Assembly: GCF_011045215.1 (NCBI RefSeq)
Contig: NZ_CP049201.1
Source: Escherichia coli
GTDB lineage: Bacteria > Pseudomonadota > Gammaproteobacteria > Enterobacterales > Enterobacteriaceae
Direction: 5' to 3' (one strand)
Length of the DNA: 64,000 nt
Shown: positions 17,238 to 31,194 of the stretch, piece by piece
How positions within the stretch are numbered: the stretch's first letter is position 1
How the letters are laid out: each line of letters opens with the position of its first letter
Program-made: the position numbers and the translations under genes
Notes under the pieces: model-generated
Told to the model about the DNA's origin: nothing
Seen by the model: only the letters and a program-made list of their open reading frames with translations
Database searches by the model: none

Positions 17238-17420
17238 ATGCCGGATGCGACGCTTGCCGCGTCTTATCCGGCCTACGGGATTGCACATGTAGAGCGGATA
17301 AAGCGTTCACGCCGCATCCGCCAGTGGCGCGGTGCAATTGCCGGATGCGACGCTTGCCGCGTCTTATCCGGCCTACGGGATTGCACATGTAGTGCGGATA
17401 AGGCTTCACGCCGCATCCGC
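17238..17420. repeat. BIME/REP cluster (two near-identical ~85-bp units)
   Basis: Unit gccggatgcgacgcttgccgcgtcttatccggcctacgggattgcacatgtag...gcggataa..cacgccgcatccgc present twice between eutG and eutH. Confidence 0.7.
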
Positions 17421-17452
17421 TAATAAATAACAACTAACAGGGAGTAAAGGCG

Positions 17453-18679: not shown

Positions 18680-20079
18680 ACACTCGCCAGCTACTGAGCG
18701 TCGGTATCGATATCGGCACTACCACCACCCAGGTGATTTTCTCCCACCTGGAACTGGTTAACCGTGCGGCGGTGTCGCAGGTGCCGCGCTACGAATTCAT
18801 CAAACGCGAAATTAGCTGGCAAAGCCCGGTGTTCTTTACCCCTGTCGATAAACAGGGTGATTTAAAAGAAGCGGAACTGAAATCGCTGATTTTAGAGCAA
18901 TATCAGGCTGCGGGCATTGCACCGGAAAGCGTTGATTCTGGTGCCATCATCATCACCGGTGAAAGCGCGAAAACCCGCAATGCTCGCCCGGCGGTGATGG
19001 CGCTCTCTCAGTCGCTGGGCGATTTTGTCGTTGCCAGCGCCGGGCCGCACCTCGAATCCGTGATCGCCGGTCACGGAGCCGGGGCACAAACCCTTTCTGA
19101 ACAACGGCTGTGTCGGGTACTGAATATCGACATCGGCGGTGGCACCGCGAACTACGCCCTGTTCGATGCCGGAAAAATCAGCGGCACTGCCTGCCTCAAC
19201 GTCGGTGGTCGCCTGCTGGAAACCGACAGCCAGGGGCGCGTGGTTTACGCTCATAAACCGGGGCAGATGATTGTGGATGAGTGCTTCGGCGCAGGCACCG
19301 ACGCCCGTTCGCTGACCGGCGCGCAGCTGGTGCAGGTTACCCGGCGGATGGCAGAGCTGATTGTCGAAGTGATTGACGGAACGCTCTCGCCGCTCGCGCA
19401 GGCATTGATGCAAACCGGTTTGCTGCCCGCAGGTGTTACGCCCGAAATCATTACGCTTTCTGGCGGCGTGGGCGAATGTTATCGCCACCAGCCCGCCGAC
19501 CCGTTCTGTTTTGCCGATATTGGCCCGCTTCTGGCAACGGCGCTGCATGACCATCCGCGCCTGCGTGAGATGAACGTGCAGTTTCCGGCGCAAACCGTGC
19601 GTGCCACGGTGATTGGCGCGGGGGCACATACCCTTTCGCTCTCTGGCAGCACAATCTGGCTTGAGGGCGTACAACTGCCGCTGCGCAATTTGCCGGTGGC
19701 GATCCCGATTGATGAAACGGATCTGGTGAGTGCCTGGCAACAGGCGCTGATTCAACTGGATCTTGATCCCAAAACTGACGCGTACGTGCTGGCGCTTCCC
19801 GCCTCGCTGCCTGTGCGTTACGCCGCGGTACTGACGGTCATCAACGCGTTGGTCGATTTCGTCGCGCGTTTTCCGAATCCGCATCCCCTGCTGGTGGTGG
19901 CCGGGCAGGACTTTGGTAAAGCTCTGGGCATGTTGTTGCGCCCACAGCTACAACAACTCCCGTTGGCAGTCATTGACGAAGTGATTGTCCGCGCGGGGGA
20001 CTATATCGACATTGGTACGCCTCTTTTTGGCGGATCGGTTGTGCCGGTGACGGTGAAATCACTCGCATTTCCTTCCTGA
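18676..20079 (+). CDS. eutA: Ethanolamine ammonia-lyase reactivase EutA
   Basis: 467-aa ORF, 4-nt overlap with eutH; eut operon synteny; followed by the inserted element. Confidence 0.9.
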   Translation: MNTRQLLSVGIDIGTTTTQVIFSHLELVNRAAVSQVPRYEFIKREISWQSPVFFTPVDKQGDLKEAELKSLILEQYQAAGIAPESVDSGAIIITGESAKTRNARPAVMALSQSLGDFVVASAGPHLESVIAGHGAGAQTLSEQRLCRVLNIDIGGGTANYALFDAGKISGTACLNVGGRLLETDSQGRVVYAHKPGQMIVDECFGAGTDARSLTGAQLVQVTRRMAELIVEVIDGTLSPLAQALMQTGLLPAGVTPEIITLSGGVGECYRHQPADPFCFADIGPLLATALHDHPRLREMNVQFPAQTVRATVIGAGAHTLSLSGSTIWLEGVQLPLRNLPVAIPIDETDLVSAWQQALIQLDLDPKTDAYVLALPASLPVRYAAVLTVINALVDFVARFPNPHPLLVVAGQDFGKALGMLLRPQLQQLPLAVIDEVIVRAGDYIDIGTPLFGGSVVPVTVKSLAFPS

Positions 20080-20172
20080 ATACTGTAGTTATCAGGCGTG
20101 GCGCTGGGTTGCGGGGTGTTAGTGGGATTATATCCGGCTGTGTATCCGGTCGGGGTGATTGGTCTGTATAGC

Positions 20173-20194
20173 AAAACCCGGCGCGGGGCCGGGT
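20173..20194 (-). terminator. Intrinsic terminator (minus-strand orientation)
   Basis: On minus strand reads ACCCGGCCCCGCGCCGGGTTTT: GC stem CCCGGC/GCCGGG followed by U-run, 7 nt after stop of the 20201-20761 gene; identical copy at 21822-21843. Confidence 0.6.
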
Positions 20195-20200
20195 GAACTA

Positions 20201-20761
20201 TCATTCAGGGAACAAGTTGATTTGAAGCAAACTGCCAATGTATTTACCAGTGCTTTTAATTTTTCGCTTTGATGGCTTACACGAATTCAGGTTGACACCA
20301 GCCTGGCTAGATATTGGCTTGTATTGCCGCTCCGCCAGTACGATCAGGTCTGCCGCGTCTTTTAGCTTTCCATCGTTAGCCAGTTCCAATGCTCGATCCG
20401 CCATTTGCCCGCATTGTTGAATCAGCTTAAGTTGCGATACCTCCAGTCGCAATTGCTGGATTCGTTCTACCACTTTCGCCCTAATGCGCTTAGTTTCACG
20501 CATTCCCATTCTTAATGCCTGGTTGCCAGTAAGTGAGTAAACCTCTTTTTCTTTCCTGAAGTTTGCGGCTTTACCGTCAGCTTGGACGCGCATTTTATGC
20601 GCTTCCAAGAATTCGCCCTCCAATTCATCCCTGATCTTCGCGTTGAATCTGTCGTTCTTGAGTTCATTTAACCCTTCCGCCTTGCGGATCTGGTTGATTA
20701 ACTCCAACAATTCATCACTGCGGATACGCCACTCGCTATCAACCTGTACCAAGTCAAACAT
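20201..20761 (-). CDS. Hypothetical phage protein (186 aa from ATG with GGGAG RBS; coiled-coil, possibly regulatory)
   Basis: ORF with good RBS upstream of internal ATG at 20761 (track start 20854 is TTG); no confidently recognised domain. Confidence 0.55.
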   Translation of the reverse strand: MFDLVQVDSEWRIRSDELLELINQIRKAEGLNELKNDRFNAKIRDELEGEFLEAHKMRVQADGKAANFRKEKEVYSLTGNQALRMGMRETKRIRAKVVERIQQLRLEVSQLKLIQQCGQMADRALELANDGKLKDAADLIVLAERQYKPISSQAGVNLNSCKPSKRKIKSTGKYIGSLLQINLFPE

Positions 20762-20924
20762 GTTGTTGCTCCCGTTTTGCTGCCATAGGGCAACGGCTCG
20801 CCAGCCTTTATCACCTCCTTTAGTTGTTGCGATTCTTAACTGAATGGTTATCAAAACGCTGCGTTAATATCATTGATATGTATCAAATTTGTTTTGTGAC
20901 GCGACAATGCCTTGTGAATATCAA

Positions 20925-20949
20925 TAAAAAACCCAGCGCTATGGCTGGG
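20925..20949 (-). terminator. Intrinsic terminator (minus-strand orientation)
   Basis: Minus strand CCCAGCcatagcGCTGGG followed by UUUUUU, 45 nt downstream of stop of 20995-21723 gene. Confidence 0.5.
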
Positions 20950-20994
20950 CTTCTCTTGATGGCTGGTTTTGTAGCTAATCGTTGGCTTTAAGGG

Positions 20995-21723
20995 TTAAGC
21001 AACAATATTAATCCCGCTCCTTGTCGCTGCCTCTTTGGCAATTTTCCCCTCGTCCTCCAGTTTAGCTAACGCCTTGTACATCCAGTGGCGGCCCGGTGCG
21101 CCATGCAGCTTGCCATCTTTGCCGATCTTACCGAACGCATGTAACGCCAAATCGTCGATAGTCCCCTTGTATCCGCCTTGCTCCTTAAGCCATTGCTCAA
21201 GCTGTTCTACTTTGAATTTTGCCGGACGTCCGCCAGCCGCTTTTTGTTGTTTAGCTGGTTCTTCTGCAATATCGCTTTTGTTGTTTAAGTCCGTCATGAC
21301 TGGTTCTCCTACAATAGCGTCGCCCTTGGTCTCGATTTGTTGATTAACTGGTTTGTCTACAATATCGATTTTGTTGTTTAGCTGGTTTTTCAACATATCA
21401 ATCTCAGCCTTTAGCGCCTCGTTTTCTCTGGCTAGTTCTTCGCAACGCTTGATAAATTTTTGTTCCATGCCGTCCGGGCTATCAACGTGCGCCGTACCCA
21501 TTACGATCTTCCCGTTGCTATCGAAGATGACAGCTTGCCAACCGACTGCGGCGAGCATTTTAAACACATCATCAGCGGTCTTGTTTGTTGTATCGCGACG
21601 CCCTTTAAACTTGTGGCTAGCAGCGCCTTTGCCTTTGAAGCCCATTGCCTCAGCGACATCTTGCCGCGTCATCTTGCGAGCGCGCTTGTTCATGCCTAAC
21701 TCAACCCAATCCATGTATTCCAT
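20995..21723 (-). CDS. Hypothetical phage protein with internal tandem peptide repeats (242 aa)
   Basis: ORF with GAGGT RBS; DNA and protein contain imperfect tandem repeats (LNNKIDIVDKPVNQQ / LNNKSDIAEEPAKQQ); basic N-terminal region possibly DNA-binding. Confidence 0.6.
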   Translation of the reverse strand: MEYMDWVELGMNKRARKMTRQDVAEAMGFKGKGAASHKFKGRRDTTNKTADDVFKMLAAVGWQAVIFDSNGKIVMGTAHVDSPDGMEQKFIKRCEELARENEALKAEIDMLKNQLNNKIDIVDKPVNQQIETKGDAIVGEPVMTDLNNKSDIAEEPAKQQKAAGGRPAKFKVEQLEQWLKEQGGYKGTIDDLALHAFGKIGKDGKLHGAPGRHWMYKALAKLEDEGKIAKEAATRSGINIVA

Positions 21724-21821
21724 ACATTACCTCATTTTGTCGCTAAACGTTTTGCTTTCTAATTTATCAACAAAAAAGCGGGTGATGGTAGCCGCTTTGA
21801 TGGGGAAGTTGACAGGGATCA

Positions 21822-21843
21822 AAAACCCGGCGCGGGGCCGGGT
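21822..21843 (-). terminator. Intrinsic terminator (minus-strand orientation), identical copy of 20173-20194
   Basis: Same 22-bp sequence aaaacccggcgcggggccgggt; 18 nt downstream of stop of AlpA-like gene 21861-22091. Confidence 0.6.
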
Positions 21844-21860
21844 ATTAGCAAGTTAGATGA

Positions 21861-22091
21861 TTACTGGGTATCGCTGTCAGAAAGTAGTCCAATTGATTTA
21901 AAGAATTTCATCACATCCTGATAGCGATACATGACGCCCCGCCCGGTTCCCAGCACATCAACAGGGTCGGGGAATGGAGTTCCGTTCTGTTCCCATTTCT
22001 TACGCCACGAATAAAACGTTCCCCTGCTAATTCCGCCCAGCATCCGGCAGATGGCAGGGCGGCTAAGAAGGATTACTTCATTTTTATCCAT
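21861..22091 (-). CDS. AlpA-family phage transcriptional regulator / excisionase-like HTH protein (76 aa)
   Basis: Motif LSRPAICRMLGGISRGTFYSWRKK...FPDPV typical of AlpA/Xis-type HTH; GGGAGA RBS. Confidence 0.6.
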   Translation of the reverse strand: MDKNEVILLSRPAICRMLGGISRGTFYSWRKKWEQNGTPFPDPVDVLGTGRGVMYRYQDVMKFFKSIGLLSDSDTQ

Positions 22092-22110
22092 TGTTTAATC
22101 TCCCGTGTGT

Positions 22111-22299
22111 TTATTTTGCGTAGATTAAGGCAAATGCTCTTTTGGCTTTGCTTAGTTCGTATTCGCGTTTTTCTATGATTGCCATCAGTTCTTGTGCGGT
22201 GGCTGGCACGCCCGCTCTTATCAGCGCAATCTTAGTATCCATAGCGCACACTCTTTCACGCACCATATCGAAGATAATTTCCGCTCTATCGTGTTTCAT
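22111..22299 (-). CDS. Small hypothetical protein (62 aa)
   Basis: ORF with strong GAGGTGA RBS 5 nt upstream of ATG; 19 bp upstream of AlpA-like gene, likely co-transcribed. Confidence 0.5.
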   Translation of the reverse strand: MKHDRAEIIFDMVRERVCAMDTKIALIRAGVPATAQELMAIIEKREYELSKAKRAFALIYAK

Positions 22300-22648
22300 G
22301 ATTTCACCTCATATTTGTTGCTAAACCTTGTAAACCCTTGTTTGACTACAAAATACACCTGGTTAAGCGACTGATAAAATGATTTAGGTCAATTTATTGG
22401 TTGATGATTTATGTCTGATTGGATTTGTCTACAAATGGCAGGTTAGTCAACAAATGATGAAACCAGGGAATGGCGGTTATAATGTCAGCGGGGATTGTGA
22501 GAAAGGCCCGGGTAGGTTGCTAACTGCCTGGGCCTTTATTTTTGGCGCGTGTACGTGAAATCTGGAAAATTTGCAGGGTAGTTGTTGAGGGATTTTTCGC
22601 GTAGGAGCGTGAAGGGTCCGCCAGTCATCGCCCTGACGTAGCGGTGAA

Positions 22649-23050
22649 TTACTTGCGAGGCTCACCCATCGGCCAGGCACCTTCATTGCGACGATAACCA
22701 ATCCGGTACTCTTCCGGCAGCGGCAAGCCCTGCTCACGATATGGACGCAGATCGAAGCCAAAAACAGGATCGTCGTCGTAGGCGAGGAATAGCCCGGCAG
22801 GCTCTGCCACGCGTTCGATAATCAGTTCCCCATCTTCAACGAAGAAGATCAGATTATCGCGAAAGTCCGTTACCTCACTGACGTGATAACATTCGGCATG
22901 TGCGTCCAGCCAGGCTTCTCGGTATTCCTGAATCTCGGCTTCTGACCATGTTGAAACAGGACGCTCCCAAATTCCCAGGCTGGATTTGCCCTGGCGGGAG
23001 AATAATTTTGCCTCTTTGCTCTGCTCTGGTTTTCTGTTTAAAAAGCTCAT
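22649..23050 (-). CDS. Hypothetical protein (133 aa)
   Basis: ORF with AAGGAGAA RBS; no recognised domain. Confidence 0.55.
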   Translation of the reverse strand: MSFLNRKPEQSKEAKLFSRQGKSSLGIWERPVSTWSEAEIQEYREAWLDAHAECYHVSEVTDFRDNLIFFVEDGELIIERVAEPAGLFLAYDDDPVFGFDLRPYREQGLPLPEEYRIGYRRNEGAWPMGEPRK

Positions 23051-23186
23051 TATTCTTCTCCTTTGAACGGATTGTTCTTGCTCTCTAATAACTTAGCGCG
23101 ACCCAGTAACGTCCGGGCAAGCGCCTCCGCCTTCCTTAGCCTAAGCCCTGCGTCTTCTGCGTCCAGATCTACATTCCTGATAGCCT

Positions 23187-23450
23187 CTACAGCCTGCTCC
23201 GCTGCGTCCGGGCGTGAATCCACTTAAATATGCCGATATGCTCACGAAAGTCTGGATGCTCATATTGCCAGCGGCAGATTGTTCTGAAGCTCGGCATGTC
23301 AGGCATGTTGCCAATCTCTCTGAGACTATGGCCTTCAGCTACCAGCAAGCAGATTTCTTCAGCGATAGCGACCCCATACTTAGCGCTTTTTCTGCTTAAA
23401 CTTGTGACATCAACAGGTAAGTTATTGATTTCTTTATCATCACCCTTCAT
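23187..23450 (-). CDS. Small HTH protein resembling the DNA-binding domain of phage terminase small subunits (87 aa)
   Basis: Motif AEGHSLREIGNMPDMPSFRTICRWQYEHPDFRE resembles TerS-type HTH; GGGGGTAA RBS; family assignment is from memory and tentative. Confidence 0.4.
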   Translation of the reverse strand: MKGDDKEINNLPVDVTSLSRKSAKYGVAIAEEICLLVAEGHSLREIGNMPDMPSFRTICRWQYEHPDFREHIGIFKWIHARTQRSRL

Positions 23451-23525
23451 AATTACCCCCGAATTGATAGCGAATTGATAGCGAATTACCCCGAATTACC
23501 CCCGAATTACCCCCGAATCACCATC
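23451..23525. repeat. Tandem array of about 6.5 copies of an 11-bp unit (AATTACCCC(C)G x4 and AATTGATAGCG x2)
   Basis: Directly visible: aattaccccc g aattgatagc g aattgatagc g aattacccc g aattaccccc g aattaccccc g aatcaccatc, exactly filling the gap between the 93-aa gene stop and the 87-aa gene start. Confidence 0.85.
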
Positions 23526-23527
23526 AT

Positions 23528-23809
23528 TTAACCCTCGCCTACGTCTGCGTCGATGCTTGCTAACTGGCTGTGTAGATCGCGTTCAATCATTTTTACCTTT
23601 TTCACAAAATCCCTTTCCTCGGCGGTGGCGGGCGCGCCCTGGGCTATGTTTTTCGTGAGGTCGTGGAAAGTGCCGAAAACATAAAGGGAGAACAGCCTTA
23701 ATTGTTGCCGCTTCATTGGCAAATCACTGTTGCTATGTTTGATCTCAGCGACGCCTTTCGAAATAACACGGGCCATCCCATGACAAATTCTTAACGTAAG
23801 CGCAGACAT
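23528..23809 (-). CDS. Hypothetical protein (93 aa)
   Basis: ORF with GGGGAG RBS; no recognised domain. Confidence 0.5.
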   Translation of the reverse strand: MSALTLRICHGMARVISKGVAEIKHSNSDLPMKRQQLRLFSLYVFGTFHDLTKNIAQGAPATAEERDFVKKVKMIERDLHSQLASIDADVGEG

Positions 23810-23930
23810 GATATTTACTCCCCGACTGGTATAATGAACGTGGTTTTAAACGTTGCTATTTGCTAACCATTTAATCTGTTAACTCAATTTCGCATTGTTG
23901 GCCCGGCACGAACACCGGGCTTTTCTTTAC

Positions 23931-24272
23931 CTATTCGAAATAGCTTCCAATATCCGGTGTCCGGGTATCAGTTTTCCGGGTCGGCTCGAAGTACGATTCC
24001 AGATCCGGCGTTTTCGGCCCACGCTGGGCGTTGGCGGCGGGTTGCTTTTCTTCTGGCTGTTCCGGCTGTTTACTACCAAATCGGCGCTCCAGTTGGTCCA
24101 TCAGCACTACCATCATTTCCTGGACCAGCTTTTCATCGGCTTTATCAAGGTTCTCCAATACCATCGCCATCCCTTTGCGGAATTTAAGCTCAGCGTCGTC
24201 CGGTTCCGGTGCTGATTCGTTTGCTTTAACTGCCAGGGCGATCCGGCGTTTTGCTTCATCCAAAAAATTCAT
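23931..24272 (-). CDS. Hypothetical acidic protein ending in repeated SYFE motif (113 aa)
   Basis: ORF with GGGGGAA RBS overlapping stop of upstream gene; C-terminus ...DLESYFEPTRKTDTRTPDIGSYFE. Confidence 0.5.
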   Translation of the reverse strand: MNFLDEAKRRIALAVKANESAPEPDDAELKFRKGMAMVLENLDKADEKLVQEMMVVLMDQLERRFGSKQPEQPEEKQPAANAQRGPKTPDLESYFEPTRKTDTRTPDIGSYFE

Positions 24273-24277
24273 TTTGT

Positions 24278-24721
24278 TTATTCCCCCATGTGGAAATAGT
24301 CATCTAAGCGGCGATTAAACTCGTCGCTGCCATCGAAATATTCACGGATACTTTTATTGACCAGATCATCACCGTCGAAATACTGGCGCGTGAAATCGTC
24401 CAATTCCCCATCGAAGTATTGACGTGTGAAATCGTCTAATTCCCCTTCAAAATATTGACGCGCATCAGGCGCTCTGTTTGGCGCTGTAGCAATCTCAGAT
24501 TGATTGCCCTGTAACTTATCGACGTTTGCTAAATACACGCCCAGTGAGCTGTTTGTTCCCATTACCGCAAGCATTTTCCGGCGATCTGCCATGTTCGGCG
24601 CGAGCGATGATAATTGAGCTTTAATTTTGTCCACTTCCTGATTAACAATACGGTCAATCAGTGGTTGATTCGTGCGAATAATTTCCTGTGCCAACTGGCG
24701 AATATATTCTTTGCGTGTCAT
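24278..24721 (-). CDS. Hypothetical protein with C-terminal tandem RQYF(D/E)GELDDFT repeats (147 aa)
   Basis: ORF with GGAGAT RBS; encoded by about 3.5 tandem 36-bp DNA repeats near 24330-24465. Confidence 0.55.
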   Translation of the reverse strand: MTRKEYIRQLAQEIIRTNQPLIDRIVNQEVDKIKAQLSSLAPNMADRRKMLAVMGTNSSLGVYLANVDKLQGNQSEIATAPNRAPDARQYFEGELDDFTRQYFDGELDDFTRQYFDGDDLVNKSIREYFDGSDEFNRRLDDYFHMGE

Positions 24722-24739
24722 TTCTTATCTCCGTTCATC

Positions 24740-25123
24740 TCATTTCTGTAAAAAACCCATACCGTGGCCCAGGCGATTTGAAATTTTCCCGGCAAGCATC
24801 CGGCGAATATGTTTTTCGTTGATGATGTCGTGAGTGACCGGATCTTCACCTTTCATACATTCCGGCATCTGGTCAAACAATACGGAAGCGCCTTCATCAA
24901 TAATCTCAGTTAAGACTGCTGGCAGCATATTAATGATGCGTTCTGCTTCGTCGTTCATTGCTTTATCGAACGCTTTTTTATCCATTGCTTCGGCGGATGG
25001 TTTGTAATTGTCGCCAGTCAGGTTAAGGTAAGTGTTGTTTGGGTGATACATGGCATTCACTCCTTTTACTTTGATTGTTGCGATTTCTTTGTTTTTGTTA
25101 ATTGTGGTGCCTTTGACTTTCAT
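24740..25123 (-). CDS. Hypothetical protein (127 aa)
   Basis: ATG overlaps stop of HNH gene (ATGA), suggesting translational coupling; no recognised domain. Confidence 0.5.
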   Translation of the reverse strand: MKVKGTTINKNKEIATIKVKGVNAMYHPNNTYLNLTGDNYKPSAEAMDKKAFDKAMNDEAERIINMLPAVLTEIIDEGASVLFDQMPECMKGEDPVTHDIINEKHIRRMLAGKISNRLGHGMGFLQK

Positions 25124-25539
25124 GCTGCTTCTTCCTTCAATAATTGTGGCAATTTGCCTGTTAGTTCGATTTCTTCATTAATAGATGCAAGTAACTGTCT
25201 CAGTTTGCGATGTAATAGCTGGTGACGCTCTCTCGGCATTTTTACCAGGTTGCTTAAGCGGTTATTCTGCGGATCGTAGTCCCGGTGATGGATATCATAT
25301 TTTCGCTCATCGTAAACACCGTAGCACCATAACCAGGCAGCCTTTTCTATTGTCATGCAGGTACGTTTTCCGTTGCTTAAACAAATGGTTATACTCAGGT
25401 GACCGCGATGTTTTTCGTTTAAGCTGCCTTTAATTACCTGGCCTGTGCTGCGGTTGTGAAATAAACCAGTTTCAGGGTCGTAGTGATATTTCTGTCGTAA
25501 TATATCAACTGATAACCGTAGTCTTGTAAGATTGTCCAT
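25120..25539 (-). CDS. HNH homing-type endonuclease (139 aa)
   Basis: Motif YDIHHRDYDPQNNRLSNLVKMPRERHQ (HH...N...N...H) typical of phage HNH nucleases; GAGGTAG RBS. Confidence 0.7.
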   Translation of the reverse strand: MDNLTRLRLSVDILRQKYHYDPETGLFHNRSTGQVIKGSLNEKHRGHLSITICLSNGKRTCMTIEKAAWLWCYGVYDERKYDIHHRDYDPQNNRLSNLVKMPRERHQLLHRKLRQLLASINEEIELTGKLPQLLKEEAA

Positions 25540-25571
25540 GATGTTCTACCTCAATGTGATTGCTGTGTTAA

Positions 25572-25757
25572 TTATCTTTCTTCTTGTGGCCTATTCAGCC
25601 AGGCCTCGATCTCGCTACGCCAGAATAATAAACGACAATTTCGCGGCGTAAATGGTTGGGGTATTGTCTTATCTTTTAATAGCCATCTTCGAATCGTTCT
25701 TGTTGATACCCCCGCTATTAATGCGAAAGCTCGCAGATCTATAACTTCATCTCTCAT
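25572..25757 (-). CDS. AlpA-like HTH regulator (61 aa from ATG with GAGGT RBS)
   Basis: Sequence LIAGVSTRTIRRWLLKDKTIPQPF...WRSEIEAWL matches AlpA/Xis-type HTH pattern; track ORF start 25862 is a TTG extension. Confidence 0.55.
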   Translation of the reverse strand: MRDEVIDLRAFALIAGVSTRTIRRWLLKDKTIPQPFTPRNCRLLFWRSEIEAWLNRPQEER

Positions 25758-26537
25758 GTTCTTACCTCGATTAAAAAGGACCGCCCCCAGGGAAAGAAGA
25801 AAGAGGAAAGAGGAAAGAGGAAAAACTTCCTGGAGGCGGGTAATTCGGATTCCTTGAATCAATATCCCATGTGATACTTAATATTATAAAGGGCGGCGGG
25901 CTATGTCGCTATTTTTGCCATAGTGTGACACCATTAATTTATTAACAAAAAGTGCTATTTATTAAATCTTTTTTCGGCAGGTGCAAGAAAAATAATTGCG
26001 ACACGGTAGGGTAGCGGGCGATAATAATCATGTAAGGAGTAGCCACCTTACGCCTCCAAATGTGATCGATAAAAATAATAGTCTCAATTCTTTCTCCCGC
26101 TTCTCGGCGGTTTTTTTGCCTGCAATCACACATCAAAAAAACACATCGAATTGATATGCCTTTAAAACGCAATATAACGCATTTTGACGGCCTTAATTTT
26201 TGCCTATCCACTCGGAAGCGTAAGCCTGTTTTGATTCGTCTGGCGTGGAATGGTGCGGCGGTAATATCAGATCTCAGCGTTCTGTGTGGTGGGATGGAAT
26301 AGCCTGGCAGGATCTGCGTGTGATTTCATTCATCCAACCTTGGATGAATGGTCCGATCTGGTCAGTAGTCCGGCACAAATAAAAAGCGCCTGCGGGCGTA
26401 GCAGACGCTTTGTGTACAGGCTTATCAGTACGGGATGTGCACGAATGATTATACCACCCTCAGAAAAACGTTTGCTTTTGCACTTAAACGGATAAGTGGT
26501 ATTTCTTGGTCTTCATTGGTTTTAGCTCACCATAGGC

Positions 26538-26765
26538 TCATTTAGGTGCGCCCCTGTCGATAATTCGGTACATGTTCTCGGTATATCTCCCGTTAATCAC
26601 CGTTCTGGTAACAACAATCACACCGTTTTCCTCCAGAAAGGCAATGGCCCGCTTCACTCCCTGGCGGCTTACACCGGATAGCTGCGCCAGCCTGTCAATG
26701 GAGATGTTGTATTTGTCCGGCTGGCTTGTCAGGATCTGGAATACCGCTCGTGCTGTTTTCGTCAT
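26538..26765 (-). CDS. Small winged-helix DNA-binding protein (75 aa), candidate regulator
   Basis: Sequence ISIDRLAQLSGVSRQGVKRAIAFLEENGVIV has HTH character; divergent from the plus-strand cassette; RBS weak. Confidence 0.45.
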   Translation of the reverse strand: MTKTARAVFQILTSQPDKYNISIDRLAQLSGVSRQGVKRAIAFLEENGVIVVTRTVINGRYTENMYRIIDRGAPK

Positions 26766-27037
26766 GGCAAAAACTCATTGAAATTGGATACCCTTAGAAC
26801 GCTCTCAAACGCTCCGTAATGCGATGAGAATTTTACCTAAGCAAGTGTAGCTCTTTATTAGTTTTATGATGCCGTAGGCCGATAGAAGGTGCGCTCTCTG
26901 AAGTTTCATTGTCTATCAGTGGTGGGTAATGCTGCCTTTACTATTGGCGTCAAGAAAATCACTGGTGTAGATTGGGCGAATAGTTTACTATTCAAACAAG
27001 GCACAATGGCCTTAGCGGATTGATGTCAGGAGATACC

Positions 27038-27385
27038 ATGTCAAAAATAGTTACTTTGTTTGCGACTAAGCGAGAAGGGAAATCCCTTTCTGTGCGCACT
27101 CGTAAGCCAAAAGCTATGACTGGCTTGCGTAAAACAAATCGTCTGACGCATCTTGACGCGTTAGCGTATCGACTAGGATACCAGTTGGTGCGCGGTAAAA
27201 GTGTCATGTTTCGCTACACTGCTACTCTCGATCACGAAGAAAACAAAGTGATGAATGCGGCCTCGCCTATGGCTGTACCACGAGTAAAAAAAATGACGTT
27301 CACACAAGCGTGTGATTTATCAAAAGATTTATTCGATTCACGAGAAGAACGCTTAAAGAGTGTAAGCTTTGATGGTCCAGAATGA
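27038..27385 (+). CDS. Basic 115-aa protein, candidate partner (antitoxin or regulator) of downstream YafO-like gene
   Basis: ATG at 27038 preceded by AGGAGA RBS; stop overlaps start of next gene by 14 nt; basic N-terminus and acidic C-terminus; no recognised family. Confidence 0.5.
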   Translation: MSKIVTLFATKREGKSLSVRTRKPKAMTGLRKTNRLTHLDALAYRLGYQLVRGKSVMFRYTATLDHEENKVMNAASPMAVPRVKKMTFTQACDLSKDLFDSREERLKSVSFDGPE

Positions 27386-27887
27386 ATTTATTGGTAAGGT
27401 CTACAGTGATAACAAGTTTAAAACAAACGATGAATTAAAGAGCTTTAAGGATTCGTTTATTTATCATTGGAGATATGGACATCATCCTGATTTTGGAAAG
27501 GATACTCTTTTCCATAAACCCCCGTGTGTATATCCTATCCATTTACGTAAAGTCCATGTAAATATTGGTCTTTATACCAATCAGTACGGCTATAGCGGGA
27601 CAGAACAATGCTGGGATGACTGGTCTACTGGTCGTTATGGTCCCGGTGGTTTCGAAAAAGTTACCCCTACATCTGATGCTTATCTTATATACGCTGTATG
27701 TAAAAATAGAAATGCTGGCGTGTTAGACTTCTGGTTTCCTCCCGCACACAAAAACGCTGAGTTCGAATCCTCTGTACAGTTTGTGGCTGAGATGGCTGAT
27801 AAGTTTTATGAGTCTATCAAGGCGGACCCGATGCCGCGCGATCAGAATCCTTGGCATACGGGGTATATAGTTAAAAAACCAGCCTGA
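27372..27887 (+). CDS. YafO-family toxin-like protein (171 aa)
   Basis: Motifs F-I-Y-H-W-R-Y-G...PDFGKDTLF, YPIHLRKVHVN and SDAYLIYAV line up with recalled YafO motifs (FISYKRDG...PDIFGRDALY, ERVAHIHLAN, DEAHLVYCQG); similarity judged from memory, not computed. Confidence 0.45.
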   Translation: MVQNEFIGKVYSDNKFKTNDELKSFKDSFIYHWRYGHHPDFGKDTLFHKPPCVYPIHLRKVHVNIGLYTNQYGYSGTEQCWDDWSTGRYGPGGFEKVTPTSDAYLIYAVCKNRNAGVLDFWFPPAHKNAEFESSVQFVAEMADKFYESIKADPMPRDQNPWHTGYIVKKPA

Positions 27888-28438
27888 TCCACGCAATACT
27901 GATTGTTTTTGGCCTTGTATGGTGTGGTCTGATTTGAGGCAAAATTATTTAATCCCTTAAAAAACTAACTTCAAAAGACTAAAACCAGGGGGATGGTCCC
28001 TCTCGCTCCGCTCCAGGTACCATCCCTGTCGGGATGGGTTTATTGTAGAGTTAAAATTAATTACTCACATCGTCACACCTTGCGAAAGTTTTGCTCAATT
28101 ATCATTCAAACATAGCACAAAAAATATTCGATTTAGTTAGTGTGCACTGACTTTTTTATCAATTTACTTTCATTCGAAAGTCATGGGTTAAATATTAATC
28201 ATCTGGCTGTGGCACGCATGGATTCACCGAGGGTATTTTGGACCATTTGGTCAAAATTCATAAGTACATGATTTCATGGTGATTTATTTTTCTGTATCTT
28301 GCTTTCATTCGAAAGTGGAAACGAAGAATTGGCAATTTATTGATTCAGATCATTGACATTGCATATTTGTGGCGGTTGTCACGGTTGTTTTTTGAGCGCT
28401 TCAACCGTCGATATTGAGTATAAACCCGGCCTTATAGT

Positions 28439-29644
28439 TCACGGTTCAAGTGGATTACCGTCACCAGCCAATATTGAATCAATAGCGTCGGCGTAATCCT
28501 GCATCATTGCTCGCCGTTGCTTCAGGTAGGCCGCCTGGTTATAAACGCCGCGCACACCTTTCGGGACGTGGGCCAATTGGATTTCGATCCAGTCTGGTGA
28601 GTATCTGCCAGACTCATTAAGCGCCGTTGAAAAGGTGGTCCGCCAGCCATGACCAGTGGCAATGGATTTATAGCCGATCCTCTCAAGCGCCTTCAGTATC
28701 GCGCTGGCTGAAAGTGGCTTATCCATGAATCGACCAGGGAAGACGAAAGCACTGTATCCGCTCCTTGTAAACTGGTCCTGTAATAGCTCCACCGCCTGCC
28801 GTGATAGCGGGACCACATGCGGGCGGCGGGCCTTCATGACTTCAGCGGGCAATGTGATTGTTGCGTCCTCCAGGTTTATCCATTCCCAACGGCACAAACG
28901 CAGTTCTGCGGTCCTTAATGCCGTTAATATAAGCAAACGTATTGCCGTCTGAATCTGGACGCTCCCGGCCCTCTCAAGGGCTTTGTAGAAGGCCGGAATT
29001 TCACTAATCGGTATCCACGCGTTGTGACCAGGTCGGCGGGCCTTCAGTGCCGTATCAAGATCTGCAACCGGATTCCTCGTTACCAGTTCGGTGATAACGG
29101 CAAACTTGAAGATCTCACCGATGCGCTGGCGTAGCTTGCGGGCCTGCTCCGGTGCGGTACGTTCTTTCTTCTGGAGTAATGCCAGCACGTCACGGGCGGT
29201 TATATCGACAATCGACCGCTTGCCAAGTACCGGATAGACGTCTTTTTCTAGGGCCGATCTGACCTGTTTTGCATAGGATTCCGACCACCCTCCAACCCTA
29301 GTAGCAAACCAGTCTTCCGCCACCTTCTTAAATCCTGCCGCCATGTTGAGCGCATCAATGGCTTTTTCCTTGCGGGCTTGTTCCACTGGGTTAATTCCAT
29401 TGGCAATAAGGGATCTGCTCTCCGTGGCGCGCCTGCGTGCTTCTTTGAGTGTGATTAGCGGGTAAACACCAATAGCCTGCAAAAACTCTCGTTTATTCAA
29501 CCAATACCTGAATCGCCAGTATTTCGAACCGTTGGGATGCACCAGCAAAAACAGCCCCGGCGTCAGTGAATCGGTGAGTTTATAGGGCTTGTCCTGCGGC
29601 TGTGCGGCGTCTATGGCCTTTGCTGTGAGTGGTGTCTTGCTCAA
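28439..29644 (-). CDS. intZ: Tyrosine-type site-specific integrase (prophage integrase)
   Basis: 401-aa ORF with phage integrase features (N-terminal arm-binding domain, C-terminal catalytic region with ...HGWRTT...); sits at the element end beside eutB as intZ does in E. coli K-12; start appears to be TTG. Confidence 0.8.
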   Translation of the reverse strand: MSKTPLTAKAIDAAQPQDKPYKLTDSLTPGLFLLVHPNGSKYWRFRYWLNKREFLQAIGVYPLITLKEARRRATESRSLIANGINPVEQARKEKAIDALNMAAGFKKVAEDWFATRVGGWSESYAKQVRSALEKDVYPVLGKRSIVDITARDVLALLQKKERTAPEQARKLRQRIGEIFKFAVITELVTRNPVADLDTALKARRPGHNAWIPISEIPAFYKALERAGSVQIQTAIRLLILTALRTAELRLCRWEWINLEDATITLPAEVMKARRPHVVPLSRQAVELLQDQFTRSGYSAFVFPGRFMDKPLSASAILKALERIGYKSIATGHGWRTTFSTALNESGRYSPDWIEIQLAHVPKGVRGVYNQAAYLKQRRAMMQDYADAIDSILAGDGNPLEP

Positions 29645-29832
29645 AACCGGATACCTTGATTTAACGACTGGATAACCCCGATCATGTATCCGGCGCGTTC
29701 GGTTGCGTTCGGCAGGATAAGTAACGGGCGTATTAAGTGGAACACCTTACAGGACAAGGGCTAACGATGAAATAGAATTGTTTGCAGGCTGTGAGAAATG
29801 TTAATCGTCACTTCTTCCTGAGGGAACGACTT

Positions 29833-31194
29833 ATGAAACTAAAGACCACATTGTTCGGCAATGTATATCAGTTTAAGGATGTAAAAGAGGTGCTGGCTAA
29901 AGCCAACGAACTGCGTTCGGGGGATGTGCTGGCGGGCGTCGCAGCGGCAAGCTCACAGGAGCGCGTGGCGGCAAAGCAGGTGTTGTCGGAAATGACCGTA
30001 GCGGACATCCGCAATAATCCGGTGATTGCCTATGAAGATGACTGCGTGACGCGGCTGATTCAGGACGATGTTAACGAAACGGCCTACAACCAGATTAAAA
30101 ACTGGAGCATCAGCGAACTGCGTGAGTATGTGCTGAGCGATGAAACCAGCGTGGACGACATTGCCTTTACCCGCAAAGGGCTGACCTCGGAAGTGGTCGC
30201 GGCGGTAGCGAAGATTTGCTCCAACGCGGACCTGATCTACGGCGCGAAGAAAATGCCGGTAATCAAAAAGGCCAATACCACCATCGGTATTCCGGGCACC
30301 TTCAGCGCCCGTTTGCAGCCAAATGACACTCGTGACGACGTGCAAAGTATCGCCGCGCAAATCTACGAAGGGCTTTCCTTCGGGGTGGGCGATGCGGTGA
30401 TCGGCGTTAACCCGGTGACTGACGACGTGGAAAACTTAAGCCGCGTGCTGGATACCATTTATGGCGTGATCGACAAATTCAACATCCCAACTCAGGGCTG
30501 CGTACTGGCGCACGTCACCACTCAGATCGAAGCGATTCGTCGTGGCGCACCAGGCGGGCTGATTTTCCAGAGTATCTGTGGCAGTGAAAAAGGGCTGAAA
30601 GAGTTTGGCGTGGAACTTGCGATGCTCGACGAAGCGCGCGCAGTGGGTGCAGAGTTCAACCGTATCGCCGGGGAAAACTGCCTCTACTTCGAAACCGGAC
30701 AAGGTTCAGCGCTATCCGCTGGCGCTAACTTCGGCGCAGACCAGGTGACGATGGAAGCACGTAACTATGGGCTGGCGCGTCATTACGATCCGTTTATCGT
30801 CAACACCGTGGTCGGCTTTATTGGGCCGGAGTATCTCTACAACGACCGCCAGATTATCCGTGCGGGCTTAGAAGATCACTTTATGGGCAAGCTGAGCGGC
30901 ATCTCTATGGGCTGTGACTGCTGTTACACCAACCACGCTGACGCTGACCAGAACCTCAACGAAAACCTGATGATCCTGCTCGCCACCGCAGGCTGCAACT
31001 ACATCATGGGGATGCCGTTGGGCGATGACATCATGCTCAACTACCAGACCACGGCCTTCCACGACACTGCCACTGTGCGTCAGTTACTCAACCTGCGCCC
31101 GTCACCGGAGTTTGAACGCTGGCTGGAAAGCATGGGCATTATGGCAAACGGTCGCTTGACCAAACGGGCGGGCGATCCGTCACTGTTCTTCTGA
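29833..31194 (+). CDS. eutB: Ethanolamine ammonia-lyase large subunit
   Basis: 453-aa product from ATG at 29833 (MKLKTTLFGNVYQFKDVKEV...); EutB family. Confidence 0.9.
   Translation: MKLKTTLFGNVYQFKDVKEVLAKANELRSGDVLAGVAAASSQERVAAKQVLSEMTVADIRNNPVIAYEDDCVTRLIQDDVNETAYNQIKNWSISELREYVLSDETSVDDIAFTRKGLTSEVVAAVAKICSNADLIYGAKKMPVIKKANTTIGIPGTFSARLQPNDTRDDVQSIAAQIYEGLSFGVGDAVIGVNPVTDDVENLSRVLDTIYGVIDKFNIPTQGCVLAHVTTQIEAIRRGAPGGLIFQSICGSEKGLKEFGVELAMLDEARAVGAEFNRIAGENCLYFETGQGSALSAGANFGADQVTMEARNYGLARHYDPFIVNTVVGFIGPEYLYNDRQIIRAGLEDHFMGKLSGISMGCDCCYTNHADADQNLNENLMILLATAGCNYIMGMPLGDDIMLNYQTTAFHDTATVRQLLNLRPSPEFERWLESMGIMANGRLTKRAGDPSLFF

What the first reader, a model, noticed from the sequence alone, without database searches (positions are those of the whole stretch)
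20080..29780. Integrative element splitting the eut operon lacks replication and capsid genes but keeps regulators, nuclease and packaging-like parts
The element is inserted exactly between eutA and eutB, the site where E. coli K-12 carries the CPZ-55 cryptic prophage. Its content is a tyrosine integrase, two AlpA-family regulators, an HNH nuclease, a TerS-like HTH gene and many small unknown ORFs, all but the toxin cassette transcribed opposite to eut. There is no primase, helicase or structural gene. It looks more like a degenerate phage satellite or phage-inducible island than a decayed full prophage. It also separates eutBCLKR from the eut promoter by about 9.7 kb containing at least three minus-strand terminators, so downstream eut genes may need read-through or an internal promoter.
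Basis: partly seen in the sequence, partly recalled or inferred. Interest (0 to 1): 0.55.

Follow-up and report, generated by a model that had tools for sequence, protein, structure and literature searches.

The report
CPZ-55-like island splitting eut operon
A 9.7-kb mobile element related to the E. coli K-12 "cryptic prophage" CPZ-55 sits between eutA and eutB; it is a worn copy from a small E. coli-only family that also occurs as 8-10 kb plasmids and looks built to ride in phage particles, though no helper phage is known.

Summary
A 9,734-bp, low-GC insert (window 20080-29813) lies between eutA and eutB, flanked by the 8-bp repeat CTTCCTGA. Joining the flanks recreates an empty site that is 100% identical to real genomes and contiguous in 4,965 of 5,426 complete E. 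coli genomes.

The element is a mosaic member of the CPZ-55 (IntZ) family, found in 456 genomes. It has an intact integrase (99% identical to K-12 IntZ), two Xis/AlpA-like HTH genes, an HNH gene, a distant YafO-like toxin and orphan small genes. It has no replication, capsid or lysis gene.

This copy is degraded. Its Sf6-type small-terminase gene carries a 1-bp frameshift. It also lacks a 2.5-kb module that in most relatives I inspected encodes a genuine tail tape-measure protein.

The family is not decaying junk: dN/dS is 0.05-0.17, no insert I inspected exceeds about 13 kb, and one relative sits in yghO with the same ends. Relatives also exist as circular 8-10 kb plasmids with a primase-helicase-type or Rep-like gene.

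"Satellite-like rather than decayed prophage" is therefore plausible but unproven. No helper phage, no excised-circle junction and no virome copy was found. Published K-12 work already shows the polar inactivation of eutBC.

The parts
18676..20079 (+). eutA. Its stop codon TGA lies inside the left copy of the att core.
20072..20079 (.). Left copy of the 8-bp att core CTTCCTGA (attL).
   Evidence: the same 8 bp is reported for K-12 CPZ-55 in PMC6379469
20080..29813 (.). The inserted element proper: 9,734 bp, GC 0.462.
   Evidence: Its ends map exactly onto the ends of the yghO-inserted relative L006. The empty site was reconstructed at 100% identity.
20131..20149 (+). Two TATCCGG motifs 12 bp apart. 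These are candidate arm-type integrase sites at the left end.
   Evidence: the same positions (+52, +64) occur in relatives L001, L003, L004, L006 and L007. The function is inferred.
20176..20194 (-). Terminator-like hairpin after the 217-aa gene. An identical 22-nt copy lies at 21822-21843.
   Evidence: (D4)
20201..20854 (-). 217-aa protein with weak similarity to anti-repressor (Ant) families.
   Evidence: PHROG 8235/1726, E about 1e-5; 100% identical in L006, L007, L008 and L011
20995..21723 (-). 242-aa HTH protein of the YffS/XRE-like family. It is a core gene shared with the plasmid relatives.
   Evidence: dN/dS 0.12-0.17
21861..22091 (-). 76-aa Xis-like DNA-binding protein.
   Evidence: PHROG 4745 2.6e-11; 86% DNA identity to the gene beside int in phage mEp021; weak Xis_Gifsy_1 hit
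22111..22299 (-). 62-aa protein of unknown function.
22502..22537 (+). Strong plus-strand intrinsic-terminator-like hairpin followed by a U-run, placed in the path of eut transcription.
   Evidence: -27.8 kcal/mol, z -4.1. The surrounding region is 92% conserved in K-12.
22617..22626 (.). Junction of the empty cargo slot. The 2.5-kb tape-measure module of relative L006 (L006 4611-7103) is absent here.
   Evidence: the tape-measure identity comes
22649..23050 (-). 133-aa orphan protein whose start overlaps the stop of the TerS-like gene (TAATG). Homologues are found only in E. coli.
   Evidence: AlphaFold pLDDT 78 with no fold match
23050..23450 (-). Sf6-type small-terminase-like gene, a pseudogene here. 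A 1-bp deletion between 23210 and 23209 splits it into 87-aa and 57-aa ORFs.
23451..23522 (.). About six 11-bp phased direct repeats (AATTCGGGGGT / AATTCGCTATC on the coding strand) directly upstream of the TerS-like start. Candidate pac or protein-binding site.
   Evidence: Copy number varies between relatives, and other TerS alleles have different 11-bp-phased repeats. The function is inferred.
23528..23809 (-). 93-aa protein of the YffM family. Family core gene, function unknown.
23931..24272 (-). 113-aa protein of unknown function.
24278..24721 (-). 147-aa protein of unknown function with an internal 36-bp tandem repeat (24375-24462).
24740..25123 (-). 127-aa (or 103-aa from 25051) helical protein. 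Family core gene with very few relatives anywhere.
   Evidence: (11 clusters in 1.84 billion proteins)
25120..25539 (-). 139-aa HNH_3 endonuclease, homing-endonuclease-like.
   Evidence: An HNH gene follows the AlpA-like gene in most plasmid relatives.
25572..25757 (-). 61-aa AlpA/Xis-like HTH regulator.
   Evidence: PHROG 66 3e-7; start codon placed; no Pfam Phage_AlpA hit
25758..26537 (.). Non-coding stretch containing a minus-strand terminator (26383-26411) and a 7-bp tandem repeat (25791-25823). It occupies the slot where plasmid relatives carry the replication gene.
26538..26765 (-). 75-aa winged-helix protein resembling only the DNA-binding domain of phage replication initiators.
   Evidence: PHROG 270/186/678, E 6e-8 to 1.5e-6; HTH_36/HTH_11
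27020..27887 (+). Two overlapping plus-strand genes: an unknown 121-aa protein and a distant YafO-like 172-aa protein. Putative toxin-antitoxin pair.
   Evidence: PHROG 1651 9e-43; RefSeq name for the 100%-identical orthologue
28439..29644 (-). IntZ tyrosine integrase, intact.
   Evidence: 99% to K-12 IntZ; dN/dS 0.05-0.11
29647..29693 (.). Two TATCCGG motifs in opposite orientations. Candidate arm-type sites at the right end.
   Evidence: positions are conserved in relatives. The function is inferred.
29814..29821 (.). Right copy of the att core CTTCCTGA (attR).
29833..31194 (+). eutB, intact at 453 codons, now 9.7 kb away from eutA.

Best explanation
The insert is a degraded, mosaic member of the CPZ-55 (IntZ) family of small integrative elements. 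This family is the chromosomal branch of an E. coli-restricted family of 8-13 kb elements that also live as circular plasmids and that appear built to hitch-hike in phage particles (satellite-like).

Shown:
- It inserted by site-specific recombination at the 8-bp core CTTCCTGA that overlaps the eutA stop codon.
- It keeps an intact IntZ, Xis/AlpA-like genes and conserved candidate arm sites. It is therefore probably still able to excise at low frequency, as measured for K-12 CPZ-55.
- It carries no replication gene.
- Its Sf6-type small-terminase gene is frameshifted.
- The cargo slot behind that gene, which holds a tape-measure gene in most relatives I inspected, is empty.

Inferred:
- In intact relatives, a helper phage would switch on the AlpA-like regulator. 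Int plus Xis would excise the circle. The TerS-like protein would bind the 11-bp phased repeats in front of its own gene and hand the DNA to the helper's large terminase.
- This copy can at best excise and reintegrate. It is otherwise inherited vertically, possibly stabilised by the YafO-like pair.

Consequence for the host (shown experimentally for K-12 CPZ-55, inferred here): eutBCLKR are cut off from the eut promoter. The 9.7 kb between contains plus-strand terminator hairpins, so ethanolamine use is lost unless the element excises.
For: Insertion and ends.

Family membership and spread: 456 of 5,426 genomes; 99% IntZ identity; the TMP-less junction is shared with K-12.

Mobility: the closest relative (93.8% identity, 83% coverage) sits inside yghO with identical element ends. 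The rebuilt yghO is 100% identical to intact copies. K-12 CPZ-55 excises at below 1e-5 (PMC3105296).

Selection: dN/dS 0.05-0.17. Different modules are about 100% identical to different relatives, which makes this copy a mosaic.

Packaging link: the TerS-like profile matches Sf6 gp1 over residues 17-109, E=5e-15. Allele-specific 11-bp phased repeats sit upstream of it.

Tail link in relatives: full-length tape-measure protein, PHROG 1538 1e-105, and a gp10-like neck protein.

Episomal relatives: six metagenome contigs with terminal overlaps (one a repeat-derived 28 bp), plus a permuted pair L017/L018; seven contigs in all. Closed E. coli plasmids of 8.0-9.7 kb typed non-mobilizable. They share the AlpA-like, o127, YffM/o93, TerS-like, o133/YffP and YffS/o242 genes. 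They carry a DUF5906 primase-helicase-type gene (PHROG 1156, 7e-30) or a Rep-like HTH_36 gene.

Degradation of this copy.

eut effect: PMC7617246, PMC11334477, plus-strand hairpins, and eutB/eutC deletions next to relatives L009, L013 and L015.
Against: - No helper phage is identified. The tape-measure protein is at most 34-43% identical to any deposited phage protein, and the integrase at most 43%.
- The expected attP junction was absent from IMG/VR and from 241 million metagenome records.
- No family member was found in IMG/VR.
- The integrated members lack the primase that nearly all known satellites have.
- The core small proteins are orphans with no fold match, so no hijacking function is shown.
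- The TerS-like protein could be only a DNA-binding regulator.
- The 1-bp frameshift could be a sequencing error.
Confidence: 0.6

Rival explanations
1. Classical cryptic prophage. The element is what remains of a full tailed temperate phage after large deletions. The TerS-like, neck and tape-measure genes in the family are leftovers of its morphogenesis operon.
For: - Relatives carry genuine tape-measure, gp10-like and TerS homologues in the phage-like order TerS ... neck ... TMP.
- The K-12 member is annotated as a cryptic prophage.
- This copy shows real decay: a terS frameshift and a missing module.
Against: - All inspected occupied sites hold 6.8-13 kb inserts, and none holds a full prophage.
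- No TerL, portal, capsid, tail tube or lysis gene occurs in any of about 30 loci.
- Genes are under purifying selection.
- Plasmid relatives have the same size and synteny.
- There is no DNA similarity to 50,697 phage genomes beyond 210 bp.
- The element is mobile as a unit.
Confidence: 0.13
2. Plasmid-derived integrative element with no phage dependence. A small plasmid lineage acquired IntZ and parks in the chromosome. The TerS-like protein is a transcription or partition-type DNA binder acting on the 11-bp repeats. The tape-measure, AIPR and toxin genes are defence or addiction cargo.
For: - Closed plasmid relatives exist with their own Rep-like or DUF5906 gene and a serine resolvase.
- The cargo slot holds unrelated genes in different members: tape-measure, resolvase, AIPR, or nothing.
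- A YafO-like pair is present.
- There is no virome or attP evidence.
Against: - The plasmids are typed non-mobilizable and carry no relaxase, so a transfer route is missing.
- TerS homology extends past the HTH into the oligomerisation region of Sf6 gp1.
- Neck and tape-measure genes are hard to explain without phage particles.
Confidence: 0.22
3. A functional PICI-type island that is induced, replicated and packaged by a resident helper phage in this strain.
For: Size, the position of int at one end, same-direction gene order with an AlpA-like gene, a TerS-like gene, and a site not used by full prophages.
Against: - There is no pri-rep gene and no capsid-morphogenesis gene.
- terS is frameshifted.
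- At most 3 of the 5 SatelliteFinder PICI components are present, and 4 are required.
Confidence: 0.03

Closest known systems
CPZ-55 cryptic prophage of E. coli K-12 (intZ, yffL-yffS)
   Same: - Same insertion site and the same 8-bp core.
- Integrase 99% identical.
- Same orientation.
- The same TMP-less junction after the TerS-like/partner gene pair.
- YffM, YffO and YffS homologues are present (PMC6379469).
   Different: - Only 16% of the element aligns to K-12 by megablast.
- The window copy is 9.7 kb against 6.8 kb.
- It carries HNH, a YafO-like pair, a 75-aa winged-helix gene instead of yffL, and a different TerS allele that is frameshifted.
Gram-negative PICIs (EcCICFT073 type; SatelliteFinder PICI model)
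   Same: - About 10 kb.
- int at one end, with an AlpA-like regulator and a TerS gene in the same direction.
- A dedicated att site.
- No lysis genes.
   Different: - No pri-rep and no capsid-morphogenesis gene.
- Relatives carry a tail gene, which is a forbidden component in the model.
- No demonstrated helper phage.
Satellite P4
   Same: - At family level there is a dual lifestyle, as integrated island or as plasmid.
- The plasmid members carry a primase-helicase-type replication gene.
- About 10 kb, restricted to enterobacteria.
   Different: - No sid, psu, delta, epsilon or alpha homologues were detected.
- It has its own TerS, which P4 lacks.
- The integrase is of a different lineage (at most 43% identity to any phage record).
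PICMI (Vibrio minimalist satellites)
   Same: Small gene set; int plus an AlpA-type switch; no capsid-remodelling genes.
   Different: - PICMI requires a primase (DUF3987 or DUF5906) and integrates next to fis.
- The window element has no primase, carries TerS, and uses the eut site.
TMP-encoding satellites (mycobacterial EPIPs; PLE11 proposal)
   Same: Relatives of the window element combine a small genome, TerS, a neck-type gene and a tape-measure gene without other tail genes (bioRxiv 10.64898/2025.12.02.691453).
   Different: - The window copy has lost the tape-measure module.
- EPIPs use a serine integrase and carry capsid and scaffold genes.
- There is no sequence relationship.

Membership tests
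CPZ-55-type IntZ integrative element | Insertion between eutA and eutB at the 8-bp core, with one copy at each end | tested here: met
   PMC6379469
CPZ-55-type IntZ integrative element | IntZ-lineage tyrosine integrase at the eutB-proximal end, reading away from eutB | tested here: met
   99% amino-acid identity to K-12 IntZ; Pfam domains
CPZ-55-type IntZ integrative element | Shared core genes (YffM/o93, YffO/TerS-like, YffS/o242 families) in the same order | tested here: met
   The TerS-like gene is present but frameshifted.
PICI (SatelliteFinder model: int, alpA, pri-rep, terS, capsid morphogenesis; at least 4 of 5; tail genes forbidden) | Integrase | tested here: met
PICI (SatelliteFinder model: int, alpA, pri-rep, terS, capsid morphogenesis; at least 4 of 5; tail genes forbidden) | AlpA regulator | tested here: inconclusive
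   PHROG 66 3e-7 and a weak HTH_17 hit only; no Pfam Phage_AlpA hit at E<=0.1
PICI (SatelliteFinder model: int, alpA, pri-rep, terS, capsid morphogenesis; at least 4 of 5; tail genes forbidden) | Primase-replicase (pri-rep) and origin | tested here: not met
   No hit in PHROGs, Pfam or NCBIfam. The DUF5906 protein of plasmid relatives has no tblastn match in the window.
PICI (SatelliteFinder model: int, alpA, pri-rep, terS, capsid morphogenesis; at least 4 of 5; tail genes forbidden) | Small terminase | tested here: inconclusive
   It is a homologue of Sf6 gp1, but the reading frame is broken in this copy.
PICI (SatelliteFinder model: int, alpA, pri-rep, terS, capsid morphogenesis; at least 4 of 5; tail genes forbidden) | Capsid-morphogenesis gene | tested here: not met
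   No profile hit. The models of o133 and o127 have no fold match.
PICI (SatelliteFinder model: int, alpA, pri-rep, terS, capsid morphogenesis; at least 4 of 5; tail genes forbidden) | Helper-phage-induced excision, replication and packaging | not testable with these tools
   Needs infection experiments. The attP junction was not found in public contigs.
PICMI | int + alpA + primase (DUF3987 or DUF5906) co-localised, usually next to fis | tested here: not met
   No primase, and the site is eut rather than fis
P4-like satellite | psu-delta-sid operon, epsilon, alpha primase-helicase | tested here: not met
   None detected by PHROGs or Pfam
cfPICI | Own capsid, portal, protease, head-tail connectors and TerL | tested here: not met
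   None in the window. Only a gp10-like gene in one relative.
Defective tailed prophage (deletion remnant) | Collinear remnants of a phage genome and/or full-length relatives at the same site | tested here: not met
   No insert above about 13 kb among the relatives inspected. Only a 210-bp match to any deposited phage.
Type II toxin-antitoxin, YafO family | Toxin homologous to YafO, with an adjacent small antitoxin | tested here: inconclusive
   25% identity and E 3e-5 to K-12 YafO. No Pfam or NCBIfam hit. The upstream protein is unlike YafN. RefSeq names the orthologue as YafO family.

The most novel reading that the evidence does not exclude
CPZ-55, one of the nine "cryptic prophages" of E. 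coli K-12, and its relatives are not prophage remnants. They would be members of an unrecognised, E. coli-specific family of phage satellites ("hitchers") with the following traits:
- They switch between an IntZ-integrated state and an 8-10 kb plasmid state.
- They carry their own Sf6-type TerS with an allele-matched repeat array as pac site.
- They often bring their own tail tape-measure protein, a component almost unknown in satellites.

The window copy would be a disabled member of that family.
Probability: 0.35. Interest if true: 0.8.

Novelty: new member of a known kind. Interest (0 to 1): 0.5.

Why it matters
For the host, this insertion is a reversible genetic switch on ethanolamine use. 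That trait matters in gut and urinary-tract colonisation. About 8% of complete E. coli genomes carry an element at this site.

For mobile-element biology, the comparison suggests a new reading of CPZ-55. It may belong to a compact, selected family with plasmid cousins, a dedicated small terminase and, in many members, a lone tape-measure gene. Current satellite finders would miss this family: it lacks a primase, and it carries a tail gene, which their models forbid.

If a helper phage exists, the family offers a tractable E. coli system. It could be used to study satellites that supply a tail component, and to ask how small "non-mobilizable" plasmids move.

Tried and rejected
1. Excised-circle junction. 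I built the expected attP sequence from the two ends and scanned IMG/VR and the JGI metagenome contigs. There were no matches, so there is no direct evidence of excised or packaged IntZ-type circles.
2. IMG/VR relatives. The o133 alignment found none. The TerS-like alignment found only distant phage TerS genes.
3. Remnant of a replication gene in the 25758-26537 gap. Proteins from that slot in relatives, and the DUF5906 protein of plasmid relatives, give no tblastn match there. The annotated "pseudogene" in L001 and L012 is simply absent from the window.
5. Rfam and tRNA scans of the element found nothing. The integrase therefore does not target a tRNA, and there is no P4-like regulatory RNA.
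6. PADLOC found only a homing-endonuclease hit for the HNH gene, and no defence system in this copy.
7. NCBIfam gave nothing for 14 of 18 ORFs, plus only weak sub-threshold hits for two small HTH proteins.
8. PICMI as a model. I first recalled it as primase-less with terS. Reading the paper showed the opposite, so I rejected it.
9. A plus-strand promoter-like match at 29751-29778, just before eutB. Promoter-like hits in the region are no more frequent than in shuffled sequence (13 against 14.3), so I make no claim.

Full report
**What is there.**
ORF listing, composition and comparison with complete E. coli genomes show a low-GC insert between eutA (18676-20079) and eutB. GC is 0.462, against 0.579 and 0.551 in the flanks.

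The 8-bp sequence CTTCCTGA occurs at 20072-20079, where it contains the eutA stop codon, and again at 29814-29821. Eleven bases later comes the true eutB ATG at 29833. The element proper is therefore 20080-29813 (9,734 bp). The same 8-bp duplication is published for K-12 CPZ-55 (PMC6379469).

Joining the window's flanks with one copy of the core gives a 601-bp sequence that is 100% identical to real genomes. That sequence is contiguous in 4,965 of 5,426 complete E. coli genomes. The region is therefore inserted, not ancestral, and the host is ordinary E. coli.

**Gene content.**
All genes are on the minus strand except the pair at 27020-27887. Reading from the eutB side:

| Coordinates | Product | Evidence |
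|---|---|---|
| 28439-29644 | Intact IntZ integrase | Pfam Phage_integrase, Arm-DNA-bind_3, Phage_int_M; 99% identical to K-12 IntZ |
| 27020-27887 (+) | Unknown 121-aa protein plus a 172-aa protein distantly like YafO | 25% identity, pairwise E 3e-5; no Pfam or NCBIfam hit; partner unlike YafN |
| 26538-26765 | 75-aa winged-helix protein resembling only the DNA-binding domain of replication initiators | |
| 25758-26537 | 780-bp non-coding stretch with a terminator | |
| 25572-25757 | 61-aa AlpA/Xis-like HTH | PHROG 66, 3e-7 |
| 25120-25539 | HNH_3 endonuclease | |
| 24740-25123, 24278-24721, 23931-24272, 23528-23809 | Four small orphan proteins | |
| 23451-23522 | About six 11-bp phased repeats | |
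| 23050-23450 | Sf6-type small-terminase-like gene | |
| 22649-23050 | Translationally coupled 133-aa orphan | |
| 22111-22299 | 62-aa ORF | |
| 21861-22091 | 76-aa Xis-like protein, 86% identical in DNA to the gene beside int in phage mEp021 | |
| 20995-21723 | 242-aa XRE-like protein of the YffS family | |
| 20201-20854 | 217-aa protein with weak anti-repressor similarity | |

No primase, helicase, capsid, portal, large terminase, tail or lysis gene was detected with PHROGs, NCBIfam, PADLOC or Pfam. No tRNA or Rfam family is present.

Neither small HTH protein reaches Pfam's AlpA family. "Two AlpA-family regulators" is therefore better stated as two Xis/AlpA-like HTH proteins.

**This copy is degraded.**
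Alignment with the closest relative shows a 1-bp deletion between 23210 and 23209. It splits the 133-codon TerS-like gene into 87- and 57-codon pieces.

The same comparison shows that a 2.5-kb module present in the relative (L006 4611-7103) is missing, with the junction at window 22617-22626. K-12 CPZ-55 shares this shorter configuration.

In the relatives that module encodes a 726-733-aa protein. It matches the tail-length tape-measure family PHROG 1538 end to end (E 1e-105) and weakly matches Pfam TMP_2. One relative also has an HK97-gp10-like neck/tail-completion gene.

So "no structural gene" is true of the window but not of the family.

**The family.**
Parts of the element are found in 456 of 5,426 genomes, never on plasmids at that stringency. 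Only one genome covers 80% or more of it. Many of the 456 are K-12 laboratory derivatives.

Fifteen annotated relatives hold inserts of 6.8-13 kb, or 9.3-13 kb apart from K-12 CPZ-55. They share the same skeleton: int, an int-proximal winged-helix gene, the AlpA-like gene, small genes, TerS-like plus partner, a variable cargo slot, and an XRE-like gene at the far end. The cargo slot holds a tape-measure gene, an AIPR abortive-infection-type gene, or nothing.

Different modules of the window copy are about 100% identical to different relatives, so it is a recombinant mosaic.

Pairwise dN/dS values show purifying selection rather than decay:
- integrase 0.05-0.11, at dS 0.6-0.9;
- o127 0.10-0.21;
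- o133 0.15;
- o242 0.12-0.17;
- the Xis-like gene 0.08.

The closest relative (93.8% identity) is not in eut at all. It interrupts yghO with exactly the same element ends. The yghO sequence rebuilt from its flanks is 100% identical to intact yghO in other genomes, with no target duplication. The unit therefore moves as a discrete element.

TATCCGG motifs occur at conserved positions near both ends: +52 and +64 from the left, -128 and -168 from the right. They are candidate arm-type sites for the integrase's arm-binding domain. This is an inference.

Experimentally, K-12 CPZ-55 excises at below 1 per 100,000 cells (PMC3105296).

**Link to phages.**
At DNA level, nothing except the 210-bp xis-like stretch matches 50,697 phage records. 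The tape-measure protein is at most 34-43% identical to proteins of Cronobacter phage ENT47670 and roughly 45-49-kb siphophages (tape-measure-encoding). The integrase is at most 43% identical to any phage integrase.

A profile of the TerS-like alleles matches the solved Sf6 gp1 small terminase over residues 17-109 (E 5e-15). That range covers the HTH domain and part of the oligomerisation region.

Each TerS allele group is preceded by its own array of 11-bp-phased repeats:
- AATTCG-type in the window;
- TTAGCG/CAGAGA-type in others;
- phased A-tracts in a third group.

Copy number varies among close relatives. This co-variation fits a protein-binding site such as a pac site, but the function is inferred.

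**Episomal relatives.**
This was the most informative unexpected result. Homologues of the 133-aa orphan are confined to E. coli, and several lie on 8-10 kb contigs.

Evidence that these contigs are circular:
- L016, L023, L024, L025 and L026 have terminal overlaps of 55, 141, 55, 30 and 30 bp.
- L017 and L018, from different samples, are circular permutations of one 9.0-kb sequence.

Closed E. coli plasmids of 8.0-9.7 kb belong to the same group and are typed non-mobilizable: pRHB29-C22_2, pRHB04-C06_4 and NZ_CP062904.

These plasmids share the AlpA-like, HNH, o127, YffM/o93, TerS-like/YffO, o133 or YffP, and YffS/o242 genes in the same order. They have no tyrosine integrase. Instead they carry a serine resolvase together with one of two replication candidates: a 480-529-aa DUF5906 protein matching the C-terminal helicase part of phage primases (PHROG 1156, 7e-30), or a 196-aa HTH_36 Rep-like protein. 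The DUF5906 protein has no trace in the window or in 15 eut-site loci.

The family thus has an integrated, replicon-less branch and a plasmid branch built around one conserved module.

**Interpretation.**
The compact conserved architecture argues against a simple deletion remnant of a full prophage. So do the selection signal, the mobility as a unit, the absence of any large relative, the plasmid cousins, and the TerS/neck/tape-measure genes without any capsid, tail-tube or lysis genes. Together they favour a helper-dependent, satellite-like element.

This remains unproven:
- No helper phage is known.
- The predicted attP junction is absent from IMG/VR and from the metagenome contigs.
- No family member is in IMG/VR.
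- The core small proteins are orphans. o127 has only 11 related clusters among 1.84 billion representatives. The AlphaFold models of o133 and o127 match nothing.

The element also fails published membership rules:
- PICI needs at least 4 of int, alpA, pri-rep, terS and capsid morphogenesis, and forbids tail genes (PMC10085698).
- PICMI requires a primase (PMC10803314).
- P4 markers are absent.

A serious rival is a plasmid-derived integrative element whose TerS-like protein is only a DNA binder.

**Effect on eut.**
They do not act on plus-strand eut transcription.

The relevant features are plus-strand hairpins followed by U-runs. The main one is at 22502-22537 (-27.8 kcal/mol, z -4.1), in a stretch 92% conserved in K-12. 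A second lies at 23900-23921.

The consequence is already documented for K-12:
- eutB is not induced in BW25113 (PMC7617246).
- BW25113 cannot use ethanolamine as nitrogen source until the insert is scarlessly removed (PMC11334477).

In relatives L009, L013 and L015, deletions run from the element into eutB, eutC or eutA. That fits relaxed selection on a broken operon. In the window, eutB, eutC, eutL and eutK keep their full lengths.

**Verdict.**
The feature is real and correctly located. It is a new mosaic member of a known kind, the CPZ-55-type element at a known hot spot (PMC6652756), and its effect on eut is already explained. The added value is the family-level picture: plasmid cousins, a selected core, a dedicated TerS with matched repeats, and frequent tape-measure cargo. 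No paper in the searchable library connects CPZ-55 with satellites. A recent preprint states that tape-measure genes are almost unknown in satellites.

Noticed in passing
L006 4635-6824; L005 4732-6921; L010 1981-4179; L014 14358-16556 (relatives, not the window): Most relatives I inspected carry a lone, full-length tail tape-measure gene (726-733 aa) preceded by about 300 bp of non-coding DNA. It has no tail chaperone, tube or baseplate genes beside it. By megablast only the gene ends are conserved between alleles and the middle is highly divergent; about 95 genomes have a detectable copy.
   Followed up: partly
L016-L018, L023-L026 (metagenome contigs); L029-L031 (plasmids NZ_CP062904, CP057337, CP058022): Circular 7.8-9.9 kb contigs and closed, "non-mobilizable" E. 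coli plasmids share the CPZ-55-family core. They carry a serine resolvase and a DUF5906 or HTH_36 replication gene in place of the tyrosine integrase.
   Followed up: yes
L006 1993/2001 and 14503/14504 (NZ_CM143725): The closest relative is inserted in yghO without any target duplication. The yghO site reads CCTGA-ATATCAA-TCAGG, a 5-bp inverted repeat around 7 bp. This looks like secondary-site integration by the same integrase.
   Followed up: partly
L009 10170-12090; L013 12326-13187; L015 6596-7996 and 16219-17250: In three relatives, deletions extend from the element into eutB, eutB-eutC or eutA, and into int. This suggests the interrupted operon decays after insertion.
   Followed up: no
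L008 4164-5870: One relative carries an AIPR-family (abortive-infection-type) gene in the same slot that holds the tape-measure gene in others. The slot therefore behaves like a cargo or defence hot spot.
   Followed up: no
window 24375-24462 and 23931-24272: A 36-bp tandem repeat (2.4 copies) inside the 147-aa ORF encodes repeated acidic-aromatic motifs (DDFTRQYFDGEL). The neighbouring 113-aa ORF ends with repeated SYFE motifs. Their function is unknown.
   Followed up: no
window 20173-20194 and 21822-21843: Two perfectly identical 22-nt terminator hairpins (AAAACCCGGCGCGGGGCCGGGT) follow two different minus-strand genes 1.6 kb apart.
   Followed up: no
window 25791-25823: A 7-bp tandem repeat (GGAAAGA, 4.7 copies) lies just upstream of the AlpA-like start codon. 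It is a possible operator.
   Followed up: no
window 17240-17430 (between eutG and eutH): The overlapping ORF translations and TATCCGG hits at 17265 and 17365 look like REP/BIME-type repeats in the eutG-eutH intergenic region.
   Followed up: no
literature, PMC11334477: The W3110 stock used by Jallet et al. is eut+ with no insertion, while BW25113 and MG1655 carry CPZ-55. This suggests loss or excision of the element in some K-12 laboratory lineages.
   Followed up: no
L004 10570-11267; L008 8035-8732: IS1 copies are inserted inside the element in some relatives, at different positions.
   Followed up: no
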